Positions 30,564 to 39,862 of a stretch of 64,000 nt of DNA are shown piece by piece. The notes under the pieces were generated by a model. It saw nothing but the letters and a program-made list of their open reading frames with translations, made no database searches and had not been told where the DNA came from. Position 1 is the first letter of the stretch. Every line of letters starts with the position of its first letter. The DNA is from an uncultured Methanosarcinaceae archaeon. GTDB lineage: Archaea > Halobacteriota > Methanosarcinia > Methanosarcinales > Methanosarcinaceae. Both the position numbers and the translations under genes were made by a program. Location of the stretch: positions 93,965 through 157,964 of the forward strand of contig CAVRJG010000044.1 in NCBI GenBank assembly GCA_963721455.1, given 5' to 3'.

Positions 30564-30906
30564 ATCTGACAGGACTGTATAATTTGGATTCAGTATAATT
30601 TGGATTTATCGTTTTAATCTGCAGCCTTGAGCCTGGTTAAAATTTTTAATTAAGAGAGCAGATATATTACGGTAGAAAGCAATGCAAGAAAGAGAACTTG
30701 CAGAAACCCACAGACAATAGAATCTGCTTAACAATCAGAATTGTCTGAGCTATTATTTATCTGTCTCTACATCCCATCCTTCTTTATATAGGATTATCAA
30801 CTATCCCTCAAATAGGTTACCTTGTAAAAACACAGTAAGCGAAATATATTTTAGAATTGCAATCGTCGAAGAGGAATATATTCATAAAAAATATATGGAG
30901 ATAAGA

Positions 30907-33042
30907 ATGCCAGAATCATCCAGTAAACCCGTACTTGTCACCTGTGGCCTGCCTTATGCTAATGGCAAGGCTCATATTGGGCATCTCCGGACCTACGTGC
31001 CCGCTGATATTTTTGCCCGTTCCCTGCGAAAAGAAGGAAGGGACGTTACCTTTGTCTGCGGCTCGGACACTCACGGCACCCCTATTGTCGTGAATGCCGA
31101 AGAACTCGGGATCACTCCAAAAGAGCTTGTAGAGACATATCACAAACATTTTGACGAGACCTTCAAGCAGCTGGGAGTTTACTTTGATGCTTTTGGGACA
31201 ACGGATGATCCTGAGAATCACAAAAGGACGCTGGATATCGTCAACAGGCTGATTGAAAAAGACTACGTGTACCCAAAAACCATCGAAATTGCCTACTGCC
31301 CGCAATGCAACCGTTTTCTCCCTGACCGCTACGTAGAAGGCTCCTGCCCTCACTGCGGGGAAACAGCAAGAGGGGATGAATGTGACCAGGGATGCGGAAA
31401 ACACCTGGAGCCCGGAGAACTTCAGAGCCCTGTCTGTACTATCTGCGGAGGGCCTGCCGAGTACCGCCAGCAGGAACATTTCTTTTTCAAGCTTTCTAAG
31501 TTCAGCGATTATCTCATGAACTATCTCTCAAATGACCTTGGGGGAACCATCAATGCCATAAATTACGCATTAGGCTGGGTAAAGCAGGGGCTTACGGACT
31601 GGTGCATTACACGGAACCTGGAATGGGGAGTTAAATTCCCCGGCCATGATGACCTTGTGGTCTATGTCTGGGTAGATGCTCCCATAGGGTACATCGCCTT
31701 TACCGAGGAGTGGGCTGCAAAAGCAGGAGACTCCTGGGAAAAATACTGGAAAAATGACGGGGAAATTGTCCACTTCATAGGGGGAGACATCACCTACCAC
31801 CACTGTATCTTCTGGCCGGCTATGCTTAAAGGTGCAGATTACTCAGTGCCTACAGCTGTCGTAGCTTCAGGCATGGTCAAAATCGAAGACAAAAAGTTTT
31901 CCAAGACTAGGGGTTATGTGGTCTGGGTAGGAGAAGATTACCTTGACCACGGTTTCCATCCTGACCTGCTGAGATACTATCTGGCAAGCTATACCTCTCA
32001 CACAAAGGAGCTGAATTTCTCCTGGCATGTGCTTCAGGAAAAAATCAACACTGAACTGGTGGCCGTGTTCGGGAATTTCCTGTACCGGACAATGCTTTTC
32101 GCTTTCAAGAATTACGGAGAAGTCCCGTCCGGGGAGCTCGAACCTGAGGTAAAGGAAGAAATCGAAAAGGCCCTGAAAGAGATAAAAGCAGCAATGGCAG
32201 AATATGAATTCAAAAAAGCCGTTGATTCTGCAATGACCCTTGCATCTTTCGGGAACATCTATTTCCAGTCCCATGAGCCCTGGAGCCTTATAAAGAAAGA
32301 CAGGGCAGCCTGCGGAAATGTGCTTTACAACTGCCTCCACCTTGCAAAAGCCCTATGCCTTATCTTTGAGCCCGTGCTCCCGCAAACAATGGAGACAGCC
32401 TGGGCAGGACTGGGGCAGGAAGGAGACCTGCATGCCGCCCGGTACAGTGAAGCTCTCGTGCCGCTGAAAGCGGGCACAAAACTTGCAAAACCCGAGATCC
32501 TTTTCACAAAGCTCGAAGACGACAGGATCGGAGAGATGGAAGAGATCGCAAGCCAGAGGGTAAAAGCTGCAGATGCAAAGAAAGCCGCAGCAAAAAGGAA
32601 CGGAAAAGAGCCCGCCAAATCCGAAGGGATGGGACCTGCAGAAGAAGCAAAACCAGCCGAAAAAGCTGTAGATGCAGCAAAAGCAAAGGAAGAAGAGGAA
32701 AAAGAAACCCTTCCATTGATTGAGTACGAAGACTTTGCAAAACTCGATATCAGAGTAGGAAAGGTTTTACTTGCCGAACCCATTAAGAAGTCCAAAAAAC
32801 TCCTGAGGGTTGAAGTGGATATCGGTGAGGAAAAGCCAAGACAGCTTGTTGCAGGCATGGCTTCATACTACACTCCCGAAGAGTTAGTAGGAAAATATGT
32901 AATCGTACTTGCCAACCTGAAACCTGCCAAACTCTGCGGAGTCGAATCAAACGGCATGATGCTTGCAGCCGATGATTGTGCGGAAATCGTATCAGCCCTG
33001 ATGCCGGATAAAGAGATAAAACCCGGTTCCAGAATACGCTGA
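30907..33042 (+). CDS. metG: Methionine--tRNA ligase with C-terminal tRNA-binding domain
   Basis: [11 protein letters not shown], Zn knuckles, [16 protein letters not shown]-terminal Trbp111-like domain. Confidence 0.96.
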
Positions 33043-33356
33043 AAGCCAGGGTAAATTTAAATCAAAATTAAAATTTGTTAAAATCAAAATTTGCCAGTTG
33101 TTTTCATGTCCGTATGTAAGCGGGCATGAGCAACTTATTGAGCTGATCCTCAAGTCCATTTTAGAATCAGACATGACTATTTTTAAGACTTGATTTATAA
33201 TCAGCAACTCAATTGATTTTTGAGTCTTTGGGTCGGCTCATTACCTTTACTTTTTTGCCTGTGAAACCTCAATAGTTGGCACTAGATAAACAAAGACGAA
33301 AGGTTTAACTGGAAAATAACTCATCGAGAGATGAGACTAAAATTCGAAGGCACACA

Positions 33357-36300
33357 ATGAAACCTACTGCTGAAGACTTAATAAATGGGGAAATAAGCAG
33401 CGTAGGAGTTTACCTATTTAACAGGGTAAAGAATTGTATTTTTGAAAAGGAGCCTATTGAAAAAACGGCCATCAGAAAGGCTGATTTTGAAAAAATAATA
33501 GAAGAGAAAAAAGAATTCGAAGAGTTTCCTGCGATATCTCGAGAGGATATAAAGGCTATTTGTGAGATTTTATACGACTCTAATGACATCGAATCAATAA
33601 TCAAGCAATTGTATGTGTATCAGAGTGGTATGAATAAAAGCCTTGAAGAAATCAAGGAAGATTTTGTATCATTGTTTCCCAGGACAATAAAGCTAGAAAA
33701 TGGAAAAAGAAATCTGGAAACAGGGGAAAGAAGCTCTTTTTTACTTAAGGTATTTGAGGTACTGGACGAAGGAATTCAAACTGCTTTAAACAGAGCAGCA
33801 AATGAAGGATCTTCAGGTGCTTCTAATGCACTCTCCAACCGCCGGCACTTTGATATGAAAAATGAATTAGCAAATGGATTTAAAGATGTTAAAAAGCTTA
33901 TAAGCGATGGCTCCCGACTTCTGAGAGAGCCTATTCCTCTTCCTGGTCAAATGATTGGAGTTCCTTCCCGCCCTCCGAATTATTTACCTCGAAAAGATGA
34001 TCTCAATATAATTAAAGAGCTAATACTAACTGATACTGTCAAACCAGTAGTGATAACATCTGCAAAGCAAATTACCGCGCTTCAAGGTATGGGAGGAATG
34101 GGAAAATCCGTATTAGCTGCAGATTTCGCCCGCACTAGAGAAGTTCAAAAGGCATTTTCTGACGGAATATTCTGGATAACTGTTGGATTAGAAGCATCGG
34201 ACTCTGATGCTAGCGGGAACATGAGACTGATCGGAACAAACCTTGGAGATGACCCTGTAAATTATAGTGGTAAAAAAGAAGCTGAAGCGAGTCTTTCAAA
34301 GATACTTTATGACAAGGTCTGCCTCATTATACTCGATGACATATGGAAAGTCCCACAAGCTACGCCTTTCGTCAATGCTTTAGGTTCACGTTGCAGGCTG
34401 CTTATTACCACGCGAAATGATGATGTTGTTACCTCACTTGGAGCTCAGGAACATAAAGTCGAAATACTCAGCAAACCTGAAGCTTTGAAGCTTCTGGCAA
34501 ATTGGTGCGAACAGAAAGTTGATTCATTGCCATCTGAGGCTGCAGAGGTTTCCAGGGAGTGCGGATACTTACCACTTGCTCTATCCATCTGCGGTGCAAT
34601 GGCTAAAAGTGGGATATCATGGATATATATCCTTGAAGCCTTAAAAGAAGCTGACTTTGAATTCATTGAAGCTCAATTGCCAAATTATCCAGATCCAAAC
34701 GTAGGGAGAGCATTGAAAGTTAGTGTTGACTTTCTCTCACGTGAAGATCCTAACGCCGTACTGCGTTATCAGGAATTAGTGATCTTCCCTGAAGATGAAC
34801 TCGTGCCCGAAGCTACAATTACAACTCTCTGGGAACATACTGGAAATCTGAAAAAACGCAATGTTGAAAAGCTGCTTATTAAACTTAAAGACAGATCTCT
34901 TCTGCGGCTTGACGGTAAAGCCCCTAATCGTCTCATATCTCTGCATGACCTGCAATTAGATTACTTGAGAGCGACAGCGGGTGATTTAACCAGCCTCCAC
35001 AACAAGCTGCTGGAAGCATATGGTAAAGAATGTGGTAATAAGTGGAGTGATGGTCCTGAAGATGGCTATTTCTTCGAACATCTTGCATACCACATGAAAG
35101 AAGCTGGAAGAAAGGAAGAACTTCGCAAGCTCCTTTTAGACTTTGAGTGGATGTATACCAAACTGAAGAAAGTCTTTATTATACAGGACAAAACCGGTAT
35201 GGAAGTGCCCAATGTAAACTCTCTGATTCGTGATTACGATTACCTCCCCGATGATACTGAAATAGGGCTTGTGCAAGGTGCGATTAAGCTCTCATATAAT
35301 GCTATATCAAAAGATAAAACTCAGCTTGCAGGACAGCTTCTTGGACGCCTTCTTTGTTTCCATGAAGGTGGAATACAATCATTGTTAAGCCAAGTATGTG
35401 AGTGCAGAGACGGCGTTAGGTTGCTTCCCAAAACTTCCTCCTTGCAACCACCAGGACAATTATTAATTAGAACTCTTGAAGGGCACAAAAACTCTGTGTA
35501 TGCCGTTGCAGTCACTCCTGATGGAAGGGATGTGATTTCAGGTTCTGAGGACAGAACGCTTAAGATATGGGATCTGAAAACAGGGATGATAAAACCTACT
35601 TTCGGCAGGTCGACGTTTAATTTTTGATAATTTTACTGATGGCGATTTTGAAATAATGCTCCTTACTTGTGTGTAATTGATAGGTTTACATATGACCAAT
35701 TATTAATTTCTCATACTAAACTTTAATGAAAAAATGATTTAGTATTTATATATGCTGTGGGAGTTGAGCCACCTGTTAACCAGCTTTAAACCTAATCTAT
35801 AGTTAGTGAATGTTCAAAAACGGCATCAAGAAAAATATTCTAATTTTTAATGTCGACCTGCCGAAAGTAGGATAAAAACAACACTTAAGGGGCATCATGG
35901 TTGGGTGACCGCAGTTGCAGTCACACCCGATGGAGAGTGTGCTATCTCAGCTTCAGAGGACAGAACGCTTAAGATATGGGATGTGGAAACAGGGATCGTA
36001 AAAAGAACATTAAGAGGACATGAAGGTACGGTGTGGGCGGTTGCAGTTACTCCTAATGGAAAGTATGCAATTTCAGCTTCACATGATAAGACACTTAAGT
36101 TGTGGGATATAGAAACAGGGGTGGTGAAAACAACATTCAGAGGGCATAAAGATTCGGTGTGTGCGGTTTCAGTCACCCCTAATGGAAAGTATGCAATTTC
36201 AGCTTCACTTGATAAGACACTTAAGTTGTGGGATATAGAAACAGGGGTGGTGAAAACAACATTCAGAGGGCATAAAGATTGGGTGATGGAAGTTGCAGTC

Positions 36301-37630
36301 ACACCCGATGGGAAGTATGCAGTCTCAGCTTCACTTGGTAAAATACTTAAGGTATGGGATCTAGAAACAGAAGAGGAAAAAGCAACACTGACAGAGTACA
36401 ATGGTTTGACGTATTCAATTGCATTTACACCCGACAGTAAATATGTAATTTCAGGTTACAGCACACTTAATGTATGGGATCTAGAAAACGGGGAAGGAAT
36501 AACATTACTAAGAGGGCATTATGAGAGGGTTTCTGCAATTGCAGTCACCCCTGACGGAAAGTATGCTATTTCAGCTTCAGATGACCGAACACTTAAGGTA
36601 TGGGATCTAGAAAAAGGAGAAGAAAAAACAACTCTAAAAGGGCATAAAAGTACGATGTCTGCCGTTGCAGTCACACCCGATGGAAAGTATGCAATTTCAG
36701 CTTCATTTGACGGTACACTCAAAGTATGGGATATGGAAAAAAGTGAAGAAAAAATAACACTGAAAGGGCATAAGGGGTGGGTAAGGGAAGTTGCAATCAC
36801 ATCCGATGGAAAATATGCTATTTCAGCCTCAGATGACTTAACACTTAAAGTATGGGATCTGGAAAAAGGAGTAGAAAAAACAACATTGAAAGGGCATTAT
36901 GAGATGATTGAAGCGGTTGCAGTCACATCCGATGGAAAATGTGCAATTTCAGCTTCAGATGATAAAACACTTAAAGTATGGGATCTGGAAAAAGAAGAGG
37001 AAAAAGCAACACTTAAAGGGCATGAAGGGAGGGTGTTTGCAGTTGCAGTAACCCCTGATGGAAAATATGCAGTTTCAGCTTCAGATGACCGAAAACTTAA
37101 GATATGGGATCTGGAAAAAAGAATGGAAAAATCAACTCTCATTGGTCATGAAGATTGGGTGTATGCAGTTGCAGTTACATCTGATAGCAAGTATGCAGTT
37201 TCAGCTTCATACGACAAAACACTTAAAGTATGGGATCTGGAAAAAGGAGATAGAAAAAACAACATTGAAAGGGCATGACGGAAGGGTTTGCTCAGTTACA
37301 GTTACAGCTGATGGAAAGTGCGCTGTCTCAGCTTCAGAGGATAGAACAATTAAAATTTGGGATCTGGACAAAGGAGAAGAGAAAGCAACAATGACAGGAC
37401 ATAACGATTGGGTTAGGACACTTGTAGTCACATCCAACGGGAAGTATGTGATTTCAGCTTCAAGAGACAGAACAATTAAGGTATGTGATCTGAAAAAAGA
37501 GAAAATTATCTCAGAGTTTACTGGAGATAGTTCCTTTGAAACCTGCGATATTTCGCCAGATGGGGAGCTTATTGTTGCAGGTGATGCATTAGGAAAAATG
37601 CATTTTTTGCATTTGGATAAACCAAATTAA
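33357..37630 (+). pseudogene. Apaf-1/NLR-like STAND protein (N-terminal helical domain, NB-ARC, APAF1-type helical domain, ~15 WD40), disrupted by a MITE and a +1 frameshift
   Basis: GMGGMGKS, LIILDDIW, LLITTR, GYLPLAL, LHDL; YFFEHLAYH...LLLDFEW; WD40 GH...WD repeats across three ORF pieces; frame restored by removing 283 bp and 1 nt. Confidence 0.9.
35595..35871. mobile_element. MITE, 277 bp, perfect 20-bp TIRs CCTACTTTCGGCAGGTCGAC, 6-bp TSD ATAAAA (IS1634-like ends, tentative)
   Basis: TIRs at 35595-35614 and 35852-35871; ATAAAA at 35589-35594 and 35872-35877; no ORF inside. Confidence 0.93.
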
Positions 37631-37649
37631 GACAATCTTAACAAATGAT

Positions 37650-38186
37650 TCATTTAGAACTGTTTTTTTCCAGTACCATTTCAAGATAAGAAGTCCGGAT
37701 AGAGTCTTTTTCCCCGGCGCCAAACTGTTTTAGCAACTCGAATAACTTTCCCCTTGAAAGATCAAGATCTTTTTCTGTTTCAGCTACGATTTCCACTTCA
37801 AGAAATTCCCCTAGCCCTTCTACTGCATCAAGACAGACGGTTATCTCTCCTGCCCTGAAAACGTCCCTTTGTTTAAGGACGACTCCGGCTTCTCGGAAGC
37901 CAAGGGCGTGGAGTATTCCTGTGGTAGTGGCCTCGTCCACAGGAGTTTCGAGTTCCTCCCGGGTTTTGGAAACATTATCAAGTTTGGGGCCTTTGTAGGT
38001 CAACACAGCCTGGCCGTCCAGTGAACGGATCCTGAGTGCCTCATCGGTTTTTGCAAAATCCCTGTAAGGGGCTGCAAAATAAGTATCTGATTGGATTTCA
38101 ACCCCGACTTTTATTGCTCCTATTTTCTTAAGGACGGAGCGAACTTTTGAATGATCCGCTCTGACCTTGACTTCTACTTCAATCAT
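37650..38186 (-). CDS. cyaB: CYTH domain protein (class IV adenylate cyclase family)
   Basis: EVEVK, DEALRIR, YKGPK, GLGEFLEVE. Confidence 0.88.
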   Translation of the reverse strand: MIEVEVKVRADHSKVRSVLKKIGAIKVGVEIQSDTYFAAPYRDFAKTDEALRIRSLDGQAVLTYKGPKLDNVSKTREELETPVDEATTTGILHALGFREAGVVLKQRDVFRAGEITVCLDAVEGLGEFLEVEIVAETEKDLDLSRGKLFELLKQFGAGEKDSIRTSYLEMVLEKNSSK

Positions 38187-38268: not shown

Positions 38269-38667
38269 TCAGGCATCTGCAGGGACGAATTTGGTGCCGT
38301 AGTATATCATGCCGCGATCGCCGTCTTCCCCGAGCTTGCGGAAAACGGGTCTTACCCTCATTCCGATGTGCATTTTTTCGGGGTCGCCAACTACCTGAGA
38401 TGTAAGTCGCGGCCCTTCATCCAGCTTGATTATTGCAAGGGTGTAAGGGGCCTGGTTTTCAAAACCTTCCGCAGCTGTGTGGATTAATGTATATGTTACG
38501 ATTTCGCCCATGCCTTTGAATTTATAGGGCTCAATCTGGCCCACACGCCTGCAGTTTACGCAAACGTTACGCGGGGGATAGAAATATTCCCCACATTCTT
38601 TACAGTGGGTACCCTCAAGGTTATACCTGCTGCCGAGATTTCTCCAGAATCTTGGAACGGAAGACAT
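38269..38667 (-). CDS. DUF35 Zn-ribbon/OB-fold scaffold protein
   Basis: CKECG...YPPRNVCVNC, YGTKF; next to thiolase and HMG-CoA synthase. Confidence 0.88.
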   Translation of the reverse strand: MSSVPRFWRNLGSRYNLEGTHCKECGEYFYPPRNVCVNCRRVGQIEPYKFKGMGEIVTYTLIHTAAEGFENQAPYTLAIIKLDEGPRLTSQVVGDPEKMHIGMRVRPVFRKLGEDGDRGMIYYGTKFVPADA

Positions 38668-38673
38668 CGGATA

Positions 38674-39846
38674 TCACCTCTCCCTCGAGAAGATATGTAC
38701 TACTGCTGTTGCTCCTGACCCTCCAACATTGTGGGTCATTCCGTACTCTGCGCCTGCTACCTGACGCTTGCCTGCATCCCCACGCAACTGGGTTGTGACT
38801 TCAACAGCCTGTTTTATGCCTGTTGCTCCTACAGGATGCCCGCAGGCTTTGAGGCCGCCCGATGTGTTGACGGGAATCCTGCCTCCTATTGCGGTCTCTC
38901 CATTTGCAGTGACAATTCCGCCTTTTCCTTTCTCTGCAAACCCGAGGTCTTCAATAGCACAGATTTCGGCAATAGTAAAACAGTCGTGAACTTCCACAAG
39001 GTCGATGTCTTCAGGCCTCAATTTTGCCATGGAATATGCCCGCTTTGCAGCCACTACGGTTGCGTCCAGAGTTGTTATGTCCCGTCTGTCATGAAGCGCA
39101 ATCGTATCACTTGCCTGGGCAGTTGCCCTGATATAAATTGGGGTGTCAGTGTATTTGTGCGCAACGTCGGCAGGAGCAAGCACAAGGGCTGAAGCCCCAT
39201 CTGTTATGGGAGAACAGTCAAAAATATGCAGAGGAGCTGCTACCATTATAGAGTTCAAAACATCGTCCACAGTAATTAAGTTTTTATACTGAGCAATGGG
39301 GTTAAAAGAGCCATTTTTATGATTCTTTACGGCAACCTCGGCAAGCTGTTCGCTGGTGGTCCCGTACCTGTGCATATGCAGCTTTGCAATCATTGCATAA
39401 AGCCCGGGGAAAGTTGCCCCTGCCATGCCTTCCCATTCCCTGTCAGCCGCTGCTGCAAGAGCTGAAGATGCTTCTTCAGACCCGACATCAGTCATTTTTT
39501 CGGCACCTGCTGCAACCACGATATCGCTATAACCGGAAGCCACAGACATGATAGCCTGGCGCAGAGCAAGCCCACCCGACGCACAGGCAGCTTCAACTCT
39601 GGTAGCCGGAACATGCAGGTTCCTGGAAAGTCCCGAATAATCCGCAATAAGAGCCCCTATGTGTTCCTGATCAACAAATCGGCCGCCGCTCATGTTTCCT
39701 ACATAGAGGGCATCGATTTCTTTTCCGCTTACACCTGCATCTTCGATTGCCCCTATCCCGGCTTCTACCACTATGTCCCTCAGGGACTGTTCCCAGAGTT
39801 CCCCGAACCTGGTATTCTTTACTCCGATAATTGCTACGTCTCTCAT
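38674..39846 (-). CDS. Acetoacetyl-CoA thiolase
   Basis: [26 protein letters not shown]. Confidence 0.92.
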
Positions 39847-39862
39847 TTTATTCACTCCGTTT

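What the first reader, a model, noticed from the sequence alone, without database searches (positions are those of the whole stretch)
33357..37630. Archaeal Apaf-1/NLR-like receptor (NB-ARC, helical domain, ~15 WD40) with an unrecognised N-terminal domain
Seen: a full NB-ARC motif set (GMGGMGKS, LDDIW, LITTR, GYLPLAL, LHD), an APAF1-type helical segment and ~15 WD40 repeats. Removing the MITE plus one TSD and one extra base gives a single ~1,329-aa ORF. The gene is AT-richer than its neighbours and lies between the housekeeping genes metG and cyaB. Established: STAND NTPases with repeat sensors act as immune receptors in animals, fungi and prokaryotes. Inference: this is an accessory archaeal immune or cell-death sensor. 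Its ~190-aa N-terminal helical region shows no TIR, SIR2, caspase or nuclease motif that I can recognise, so it could be a new effector or adaptor domain.
Basis: partly seen in the sequence, partly recalled or inferred. Interest (0 to 1): 0.7.

Follow-up and report, generated by a model that had tools for sequence, protein, structure and literature searches.

The report
Broken archaeal NLR-like gene, new N-domain
This is a recently inactivated archaeal relative of Apaf-1/NLR immune receptors that has lost the TIR domain its close relatives carry, but keeps a rare, unannotated helical N-terminal domain that is shared among several kinds of such receptors.

Summary
Window 33357-37630 encodes an N-terminal helical domain, NB-ARC, winged helix, APAF1-type helical domain and 14-15 WD40 repeats. 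It is broken by a 276-bp MITE with a 7-bp target duplication and by a 1-nt insertion near 37250. Reading through both gives 1,329 codons with no stop.

Every close relative recovered with this N-domain on an NB-ARC core carries a TIR domain between the two. The window lacks it through a clean 411-bp in-frame deletion after 33913.

The NB-ARC/WD40 core belongs to a large, mostly TIR-led prokaryotic family. The gene sits in a variable slot between metG and a CYTH gene, in 3 of 9 intervals examined, and is broken in all 3.

The N-domain is real and evolves under purifying selection (dN/dS 0.30-0.38). It is very rare: 13 cluster representatives among 1.84 billion. It matches no family library or solved fold. 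It heads NB-ARC, NACHT and nSTAND5 proteins, so it occupies the output-module position.

Its function is inferred, not shown. A Bell/HeLo-like membrane-directed role is possible, but the supporting features are weak in the window's own branch.

The parts
30895..33042 (+). metG (methionyl-tRNA synthetase), the conserved left flank of the variable slot
   Evidence: Pfam tRNA-synt_1g E 4.7e-157. It is 84-92% identical in 8 other genomes.
33357..33913 (+). N-domain coding region (aa 1-186): a helical domain of about 175-190 aa with no known family
   Evidence: No hit in Pfam, PADLOC, NCBIfam or PHROGs. AF2 model with pLDDT 78 and 8 helices. Only 13 cluster representatives in 1.84e9 proteins. dN/dS 0.30-0.38.
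33913..33914 (+). Junction of the 411-bp (137-codon) in-frame deletion that removed the TIR domain
   Evidence: DNA alignment with two orthologs. TIR_2 sits at this position in the ortholog (E 3.9e-22). Environmental contigs bridge the junction in 2 of 4 runs, and one contig runs on into unlike sequence exactly here.
34065..34727 (+). NB-ARC NTPase domain (aa 237-457), with Walker A GMGGMGKS and Walker B LIILDD
   Evidence: Pfam PF00931 E 1.7e-28, 100 bits against a cutoff of 23.5. Motifs seen.
34767..35174 (+). APAF-1-like winged helix (aa 471-537) and APAF1_C helical domain (aa 544-606)
   Evidence: Pfam PF21296 at 27.1 bits (cutoff 27) and PF17908 at E 3.8e-13.
35463..35587 (+). First WD40 repeat, cut by the MITE
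   Evidence: Pfam WD40 at aa 703-739. The reading frame runs into the MITE and stops at 35625-35627.
35588..35594 (.). Left copy of the 7-bp target-site duplication GATAAAA
   Evidence: Sequence. In the environmental empty-site joint 7 letters fit on either side.
35595..35870 (.). 276-bp MITE with 20-bp perfect terminal inverted repeats (CCTACTTTCGGCAGGTCGAC)
   Evidence: Sequence. At least 14 further copies at 99-100% identity in the own genome. The empty site is found in 4 of 4 runs.
35871..35877 (.). Right copy of the target-site duplication GATAAAA
   Evidence: Sequence.
35871..37250 (+). Main WD40 array (about 11 repeats of 42 aa)
   Evidence: Pfam WD40 E 5.7e-114 with 10 stretches. 42-aa spacing and mean pairwise unit identity of 0.60.
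37250..37251 (+). 1-nt insertion that shifts the frame; the shifted frame stops at 37276-37278
   Evidence: ORF map. One base is left out at 37250 in one contig each of 3 of 4 runs. The frame is restored in the read-through.
37252..37630 (+). Last WD40 repeats and the C-terminal blade, with the stop at 37628-37630
   Evidence: Pfam WD40 E 1.6e-23. The C-terminus is collinear with the intact relative P0006.
37650..38186 (-).
   Evidence: Pfam CYTH E 4.2e-35. It is 75-86% identical in 8 other genomes.

Best explanation
The locus is a recently inactivated allele of a Methanosarcina-lineage NLR-like STAND receptor. The full architecture of the family is N-domain, TIR, NB-ARC/WHD/APAF1-helical, then 14-15 WD40 repeats forming a double propeller.

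Three lesions are shown:
1. A 411-bp in-frame deletion removed the whole TIR domain.
2. A 276-bp MITE from a family with many near-identical copies in this genome inserted into the first WD40 repeat. It truncates the protein at 756 aa.
3. A 1-nt insertion near 37250 shifts the frame in the last repeats.

The mechanism of intact relatives is inferred from what is established for STAND/NLR proteins. The WD40 propellers would bind a trigger, probably of viral origin. The NB-ARC module would then oligomerise. That would cluster the N-terminal output modules, which are a TIR (NAD+-consuming or signalling) and the N-domain.

The N-domain is a lineage-restricted helical module of about 180 aa that sits at the extreme N-terminus of three different STAND classes. 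I read it as an autonomous output module activated by induced proximity. It may be membrane-directed through its N-terminal hydrophobic helix, as in Bell/HeLo/CC domains. I do not read it as a homotypic adaptor.

In this genome the gene is most likely non-functional.
For: Shown:
- Domain map and the three lesions.
- TIR_2 is present in the same-genus ortholog (E 3.9e-22) and in all 8 other recovered relatives with this N-domain on an NB-ARC core (P0004-P0010, P0029).
- A relative from another family (P0002, 58% identity, intact, 1,006 aa) and close relatives (P0025, P0026, P0028, 76-82% identity) start directly with TIR. TIR next to NB-ARC is therefore ancestral, and its absence in the window is a loss.
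- The MITE matches other copies at 99-100%. NB-ARC dN/dS is 0.16-0.17 for window pairs and 0.16 between the two orthologs. Both fit recent inactivation.
- N-domain: dN/dS is 0.30-0.38. It is fused to TIR-NB-ARC, NACHT and nSTAND_NTPase5, always N-terminal.
- The profile finds one copy only in 8 of the 14 genus genomes that have it, the own genome included, and no two copies are adjacent. This argues against a paired adaptor.
- In 6 of 14 family representatives residue 2 is acidic. In 4 of 14 the first helix averages Kyte-Doolittle 1.29 or more over 18 residues with at most one charge. Passages of two papers give these as features of Bell, HeLo, Hell, MLKL and CC domains.
- The same NB-ARC chassis also carries a trypsin-like N-terminus (P0030, 71% identity), so the N-terminal slot is an exchangeable output slot.
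Against: - No experiment or structure shows what the N-domain does.
- The window's own branch starts MKPT, and its first helix is only mildly hydrophobic (0.63 with 3 charges). The Bell-like features are therefore weakest where the claim is made.
- That helix has low confidence in both AF2 models (pLDDT 45-55).
- In the TIR-bearing relatives the N-domain sits upstream of an established effector, which also fits a regulatory or localisation role.
- Contigs bridging the TIR-less junction at about 93-94% identity in 2 of 4 runs suggest the TIR-less form has persisted and may be functional elsewhere. 'Decay' is therefore not the only reading of the deletion.
- The 1-nt insertion could be an assembly error in a 73-contig draft.
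- An immune function is inferred from family resemblance only. PADLOC has no model for the whole protein.
Confidence: 0.6

Rival explanations
1. The N-domain is a homotypic adaptor, of the effector-associated-domain or Death-like type. It would recruit separate N-domain-bearing effector proteins to the oligomerised receptor.
For: The domain also occurs without an NTPase. It is fused to two unrelated unannotated C-terminal regions (P0014 and P0017, about 380 aa; P0011 and P0013, about 290 aa). It also occurs as short proteins (P0019, 194 aa; P0020, 181 aa). That spread across receptors and non-receptors is the pattern described for EADs (passages of PMC7159879).
Against: The defining context is a second copy in the adjacent gene, and it was not found. 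The own genome has a single copy. Of the 14 genus genomes with the domain, 8 have one match. In the genomes with two, the matches lie on different contigs or 19 kb to about 740 kb apart. The short proteins may be fragments of metagenome contigs. The C-terminal partners match no effector family in Pfam, PADLOC or PHROGs.
Confidence: 0.15
2. The N-domain is a regulatory, autoinhibitory or localisation module rather than an output. TIR is the only effector, so the TIR-less window allele was already dead before the MITE arrived.
For: In all 8 other recovered relatives with this N-domain on an NB-ARC core, a canonical TIR lies between N-domain and NB-ARC. The TIR is the most constrained part, with dN/dS 0.10 against 0.30-0.38 for the N-domain. 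Close relatives work with TIR alone (P0025, P0026, P0028 and P0002).
Against: In the NACHT and nSTAND5 proteins the N-domain is the only N-terminal module, with no other effector detected by Pfam. A regulator with nothing to regulate is unlikely there. The TIR-less junction occurs in contigs of 2 of 4 other samples at about 93-94% identity, which suggests persistence after the TIR was lost.
Confidence: 0.17
3. The gene is still functional in this organism. Either the lesions are assembly artefacts, or the 756-aa product without a sensor is active.
For: The genome is a 73-contig draft. A 1-nt indel can be an assembly error, and the frameshift-free form exists in 3 of 4 runs. NB-ARC dN/dS in window pairs is not raised (0.16-0.17).
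Against: The MITE lies inside a 64-kb assembled stretch with a proper 7-bp target duplication, and its first bases bring a stop. Genome-borne copies are also broken elsewhere: by an IS in G006, by a split into 969-aa and 525-aa frames in G044, and by four stops in G020. Decay is therefore the usual state of this gene.
Confidence: 0.08

Closest known systems
Prokaryotic TIR-NB-ARC-WD40 NLR-like STAND proteins (AP-ATPase/Apaf-1 clade)
   Same: The NB-ARC, winged-helix, APAF1-helical and WD40 chassis is the same. 667 proteins match at E <= 1e-20 among the 8,000 candidates scored. The best 120 listed reach down to 42% identity. They come from archaea and from bacteria, including cyanobacteria, Desulfuromonadales and Omnitrophica by the sources' own names. 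Many have TIR_2 at the N-terminus. The WD40 units are highly alike internally (mean 0.60).
   Different: The window copy has no TIR. It carries a helical domain of about 185 aa that is found almost only in Methanosarcinaceae. It is broken by a MITE and a frameshift.
Apaf-1 / CED-4 apoptosome proteins
   Same: The order NB-ARC, WHD, helical domain, then about 15 WD40 repeats is the same, with Pfam APAF1_C and APAF-1-like_WHD matches. A double-propeller sensor is implied.
   Different: The N-terminus is not a CARD, no caspase partner is evident, and there is no evidence on the ligand. The resemblance lies in the chassis, not in the pathway.
Bell / HeLo / Hell / CC(HeLo) / MLKL-4HB membrane-targeting execution domains
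   Same: The position at the extreme N-terminus of NLR-type proteins is the same, and the domain is all-helical. In 6 of 14 family representatives residue 2 is acidic and a hydrophobic first helix follows. Passages read in 10.1101/2020.01.06.895854 and 10.1101/2024.11.07.622273 describe these features. The first of these papers reports Bell domains in Methanosarcinales.
   Different: The N-domain is about twice as long as Bell (about 100 aa). There is no sequence or profile match and no fold match. The window's own branch starts MKPT, and its first helix is only weakly hydrophobic. Membership is not shown.
Effector-associated domains (EADs) and Death-like adaptors of prokaryotic conflict systems (PMC7159879, PMC8195603)
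   Same: It is a non-enzymatic helical N-terminal module shared among different NTPase receptors and non-receptor proteins.
   Different: No second copy lies in an adjacent gene, and most genomes that have the domain have one copy. For PMC8195603 only the search listing was seen.
Avs / bNACHT antiphage STANDs
   Same: The three-part logic is the same: an N-terminal output, a STAND NTPase and a C-terminal repeat sensor. Apaf1-like WD40 sensors are noted among defence-associated STAND clades (passages of PMC13581612).
   Different: No PADLOC model matches the whole protein or the N-domain. No phage-challenge data exist for this family.

Membership tests
STAND NTPase, NB-ARC (AP-ATPase) clade | NB-ARC domain with Walker A and Walker B | tested here: met
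   PF00931 at 100 bits against a cutoff of 23.5, aa 237-457. GMGGMGKS and LIILDD are in the translation.
STAND NTPase, NB-ARC (AP-ATPase) clade | Winged-helix and helical (APAF1_C) extension after the NTPase | tested here: met
   PF21296 at 27.1 bits (cutoff 27) and PF17908 at 50 bits (cutoff 22.8).
STAND NTPase, NB-ARC (AP-ATPase) clade | C-terminal repeat sensor (WD40 propellers) | tested here: met
   WD40 at E 5.7e-114 and 1.6e-23 in the downstream pieces. 13 strict units 42 aa apart in the read-through. The array is interrupted by the MITE and the frameshift.
TIR-NB-ARC-WD40 receptors | TIR domain N-terminal to the NB-ARC | tested here: not met
   The window protein has no TIR hit. A 411-bp deletion lies exactly where orthologs have TIR_2. 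The window copy is a derivative of this family, not a member by architecture.
Known anti-phage defence systems (PADLOC-DB v2) | Match to a system-specific protein model | tested here: not met
   Only WD40-repeat and TIR-piece matches were found, such as HEAT-ARM_XIII and ThsB-like TIR in relatives. Nothing matches the N-domain or the NTPase.
Effector-associated domains (EAD) | [quoted passage not shown] | tested here: not met
   The own genome has a single copy, and the neighbours are metG and CYTH. In 8 of 14 genus genomes with the domain there is one match. Where there are two, they are not adjacent.
Bell / HeLo-like membrane-targeting domains | Conserved N-terminal motif (acidic residue at position 2-3) followed by a hydrophobic helix 1 | tested here: inconclusive
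   In 6 of 14 representatives residue 2 is E or D. In 4 of 14 the first helix has KD >= 1.29 with at most 1 charge. The window copy starts MKPT and scores 0.63 with 3 charges.
Bell / HeLo-like membrane-targeting domains | Sequence or profile similarity to HeLo, Hell, RPW8, Rx_N or MLKL families | tested here: inconclusive
   No such Pfam family at E <= 10 in any of 14 members. [quoted passage not shown] No Bell profile was available.
Bell / HeLo-like membrane-targeting domains | Fold in which peripheral helices cup helix 1 | tested here: inconclusive
Bell / HeLo-like membrane-targeting domains | Membrane permeabilisation or cell death on activation | not testable with these tools
   This needs expression and membrane-integrity assays.
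MITE (non-autonomous transposable element) | Terminal inverted repeats, target-site duplication, small size, no long ORF, many copies | tested here: met
   20-bp perfect inverted ends, a 7-bp duplication and a length of 276 bp. At least 14 further near-identical copies in the own genome. The empty site is seen in 4 of 4 runs.

The most novel reading that the evidence does not exclude
The N-domain is a previously unrecognised archaeal branch of the helical, membrane-directed cell-death execution modules (Bell, HeLo, CC, MLKL type). The intact Methanosarcina proteins would then be dual-output NLRs with a membrane-attacking module plus a TIR. The naturally TIR-less allele seen here and in other samples would be a receptor that signals through the N-domain alone.
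Probability: 0.25. Interest if true: 0.7.

Novelty: new variant of a known kind. Interest (0 to 1): 0.45.

Why it matters
NLR-like STAND receptors are a shared theme of immunity in animals, plants, fungi and bacteria. Archaeal examples are almost unstudied.

This locus shows N-terminal output modules being swapped, added and lost on one conserved NB-ARC/WD40 chassis within a single archaeal lineage. The forms seen are TIR only, N-domain plus TIR, N-domain only, and trypsin-like.

It also defines a rare new module that three STAND classes share. If that module proves to be a membrane-directed executioner, it would extend the Bell/HeLo/CC/MLKL theme to archaeal receptors. It would also give a compact, genetically tractable test case in Methanosarcina.

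The repeated breakage of the gene fits the idea that such receptors are costly and turn over fast. It was broken in 4 of the 5 genome-borne copies examined.

Tried and rejected
- N-domain against family libraries: Pfam at E <= 10 gave only SIX1_SD at E 0.13-0.19, which is noise. PADLOC, NCBIfam and PHROGs gave nothing.
- PDB sequence profile search gave one hit, 9e2g MOP23C at E 0.067, rejected as chance.
- Foldseek against the PDB with two models gave nothing at E <= 1e-3.
- The ESM Atlas gave no usable hit for the N-domain or for the C-terminal region of P0014.
- A homologue search for the C-terminal region of P0014 found only the query itself. Whether the non-receptor partners are effectors or sensors could therefore not be settled.
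- Depth figures were not used for abundance. Parts of the gene without contig cover say nothing.
- Complex prediction was not used. Self-association of the N-domain would not separate the effector reading from the adaptor reading.
- Literature: no paper holds MSBRW_0460. Searches on Methanosarcina with NB-ARC/TIR/WD40 and with STAND/EAD/NACHT terms, and on the Bell domain, turned up no description of this N-domain.
- The supplementary tables of 10.1101/2020.01.06.895854, which list the Methanosarcinales Bell proteins and pairs, could not be seen. They may show whether this domain was already counted as Bell.
Full report
**Observation.** The region 33357-37630 holds three collinear open frames on the + strand: 33357-35627 (756 aa), 35851-37278 and 37052-37630.

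Pfam places NB-ARC at aa 237-457 (E 1.7e-28). The APAF-1-like winged helix is at 471-537 and APAF1_C at 544-606. WD40 starts at aa 703 and continues through the two downstream pieces (E 5.7e-114 and 1.6e-23).

The first break is a 276-bp element at 35595-35870. It has perfect 20-bp inverted ends and is flanked by GATAAAA on both sides. The own genome holds at least 14 further copies at 99-100% identity. The second break is one extra base near 37250. Leaving out 35588-35870 and one base at 37250 gives 3,990 nt, which is 1,329 codons plus a stop, with no internal stop. That reading has 13 strict and 1-2 degenerate WD40 units, mostly 42 aa apart.

The gene has GC 0.34-0.43, against 0.46-0.52 in its flanks. 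The flanks are metG and a CYTH-domain gene.

**Independent evidence for the breaks.** Contigs of four public metagenome runs were laid on 33000-37900 at 90% identity or more.
- One contig in each of the 4 runs joins 35587/35588 to 35871/35872 and skips 283 bases, with 6-7 letters fitting either side. This is the empty site with a single copy of the 7-bp target. One of these contigs is 715 nt long with 7 differences.
- One contig in each of 3 of the 4 runs lacks one base at 37250.
- Uninterrupted and unshifted alleles therefore exist in nature, and both lesions are derived.

These are contigs, not reads of the source strain. They do not exclude an assembly error at 37250 in this draft genome of 73 contigs.

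**The missed lesion: loss of TIR.** A search of 41 related genomes with the first 745 aa found an ortholog in a genome of the same genus (G006, 72-77% identity). Its match is split by about 127 extra residues. That ortholog (890 aa) reads N-domain, TIR_2 (aa 211-331, E 3.9e-22), then NB-ARC.

All 8 other recovered relatives that have this N-domain on an NB-ARC core carry the TIR. They are P0004-P0010 and P0029. P0004 is 97% identical to the window over the N-domain.

A DNA alignment with two orthologs shows a single 411-bp (137-codon) in-frame gap in the window after 33913, with 2-3 bases of microhomology at the junction.

Several relatives begin directly with the TIR. One is an intact relative from another family (P0002, 1,006 aa, 58% identity). 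The others are close relatives P0025, P0026 and P0028, at 76-82% identity over the NB-ARC part. TIR next to NB-ARC is thus the older state. The N-domain was added in front of it, and the window allele later lost the TIR.

Two environmental contigs bridge the junction without a gap. One covers 33717-34018 with 19 differences in 302. The other covers 33878-34086 with 15 differences in 209. A third contig fits only up to 33914 and then runs on into unlike sequence. TIR-less and TIR-bearing alleles therefore coexist in the environment, and the TIR-less form is not private to this genome.

**Locus and turnover.** The metG-CYTH interval was examined in 9 genomes.
- It is 263 bp, 781 bp and 882 bp in three genomes.
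- Two genomes hold transposases with a GNAT or a phosphoribosyltransferase gene there. One holds a phosphoribosyltransferase gene with small membrane proteins.
- The receptor gene is present in three: the window genome, G006 and G044.
- In all three it is broken inside the WD40 array. The cause is the MITE plus the frameshift here, an IS with an InsA-like protein in G006, and a split into 969-aa and 525-aa frames in G044.

A further copy, in G020, has four in-frame stops. The copy in G033 is intact. So 4 of the 5 genome-borne copies examined are broken. A metagenome-derived relative (P0006, 1,131 aa) is intact from the N-domain to the C-terminal blade.

In the window lineage NB-ARC dN/dS is 0.16-0.17, against 0.16 between the two orthologs. 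Together with the near-identity of the MITE to its other copies, this points to recent inactivation.

**The core family.** The NB-ARC/helical part finds 667 proteins at E <= 1e-20 among the 8,000 candidates scored. They come from archaea and many bacterial groups. Many have TIR_2 at the N-terminus, and a few have DUF4062, CHAT or a trypsin-like domain. P0030, at 71% identity, carries the trypsin-like domain. The chassis is therefore a known and widespread kind of NLR-like STAND protein. Its N-terminal slot is exchangeable.

**The N-domain.** Residues 1 to about 186 have no hit in Pfam, PADLOC, NCBIfam or PHROGs.

An exhaustive phmmer search of 1.84 billion cluster representatives gave 13 hits at E <= 1e-3. 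A profile of 14 members (A2) finds the domain in 14 of 59 genomes of the genus. Within the order it finds it in 14 of 201 genomes and 3 of 28 genera.

The domain is always N-terminal. Its partners are:
- TIR-NB-ARC-WD40;
- NACHT (P0003, P0012, P0024);
- nSTAND_NTPase5 (P0018, P0021);
- two unannotated C-terminal regions (P0014 and P0017; P0011 and P0013);
- short proteins that may be fragments.

It is under purifying selection (dN/dS 0.30-0.38). That is looser than NB-ARC (0.16-0.17) and TIR (0.10).

Two AlphaFold models were made, of the window copy and of P0019. They have pLDDT 78 and 77 and show 8-9 helices. The core is confident, but the first helix is not (pLDDT 45-55).

**What the N-domain may do (inferred).** Its position at the extreme N-terminus of three STAND classes, in an exchangeable output slot, is that of an effector or an adaptor.

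The adaptor reading expects a second copy in a neighbouring gene (passages of PMC7159879). That was not found. The own genome has one copy. Of the 14 genus genomes that have the domain, 8 have one. Where there are two, they are far apart.

Passages of 10.1101/2020.01.06.895854 and 10.1101/2024.11.07.622273 describe Bell, HeLo, Hell, CC and MLKL modules as helical sheaths around a hydrophobic N-terminal helix. That helix follows an acidic residue at position 2-3. The papers say similarity between subfamilies can be limited to that region, and they report Bell domains in Methanosarcinales.

In the N-domain family 6 of 14 representatives start ME or MD. In 4 of 14 the first helix is strongly hydrophobic with at most one charge. 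The window's branch starts MKPT, and its first helix is only mildly hydrophobic (0.63 with 3 charges).

I therefore favour an autonomous output module that may be membrane-directed. Membership in the Bell/HeLo group is untested beyond these motif counts, and a regulatory role remains a live rival.

**Verdict.** The finding is real, and its anatomy is largely as described. The gene is a dead derivative of an N-domain-TIR-NB-ARC-WD40 receptor, not a receptor that two repairs would restore. The N-terminal domain is new to the libraries and very narrowly distributed. It is a new variant (module) on a known kind of system. Interest is moderate.

Noticed in passing
window 37329-37335 (run X4): An environmental allele of the same gene carries a different insertion. 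Loose ends before 37329 and behind 37335 overlap by 7 bp and end in ...CCTGCCGAAAGCAAG / CTTGCTTTCGGCAGGT.... These ends resemble the MITE ends (CCTACTTTCGGCAGGT). Elements of this transposon family have therefore hit the gene more than once.
   Followed up: no
own genome G000, for example C16:7090-9845: The MITE family has at least 14 near-identical full copies beside the one in the window. Three lie within 3 kb on contig 16. A second, about 75%-identical subfamily is also present. The autonomous partner element was not looked for.
   Followed up: partly
window 35871-37630 (joints): Environmental contigs show joints inside the WD40 array that skip 504 bases or go back 252 bases. Both are multiples of the 126-bp repeat, which suggests that repeat number varies between alleles. 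Relatives range from about 9 to about 15 repeats.
   Followed up: partly
L022:5431-8577 (G015) and L024:4219-7419 (G004): N-domain-NACHT proteins of 1,048-1,066 aa lie at a shared locus beside carbamoyl-phosphate synthase (carB) in both genomes (ORF maps) and argininosuccinate-synthase-like genes (read from the translation, not scanned). In G015 a 977-aa HEAT-repeat protein follows. This may be a second, better conserved N-domain receptor.
   Followed up: partly
L030 (G006:C8:409000-425200): In G006 the metG-CYTH interval has grown to 15.6 kb. Beside the receptor it holds an IS, a P-type metal ATPase, a PKD-domain protein and an HNH endonuclease gene. The slot behaves as an integration hot spot.
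   Followed up: partly
P0030: A 1,300-aa relative at 71% identity in the NB-ARC part carries a trypsin-like peptidase domain in place of the TIR or N-domain. This is another output module on the same chassis.
   Followed up: no
window 38269-39855, minus strand: Downstream of the CYTH gene lie a ChsH2-like OB/zinc-ribbon protein and a thiolase. The same pair follows the CYTH gene in G006 by ORF size and order only. It looks like ordinary housekeeping context.
   Followed up: no
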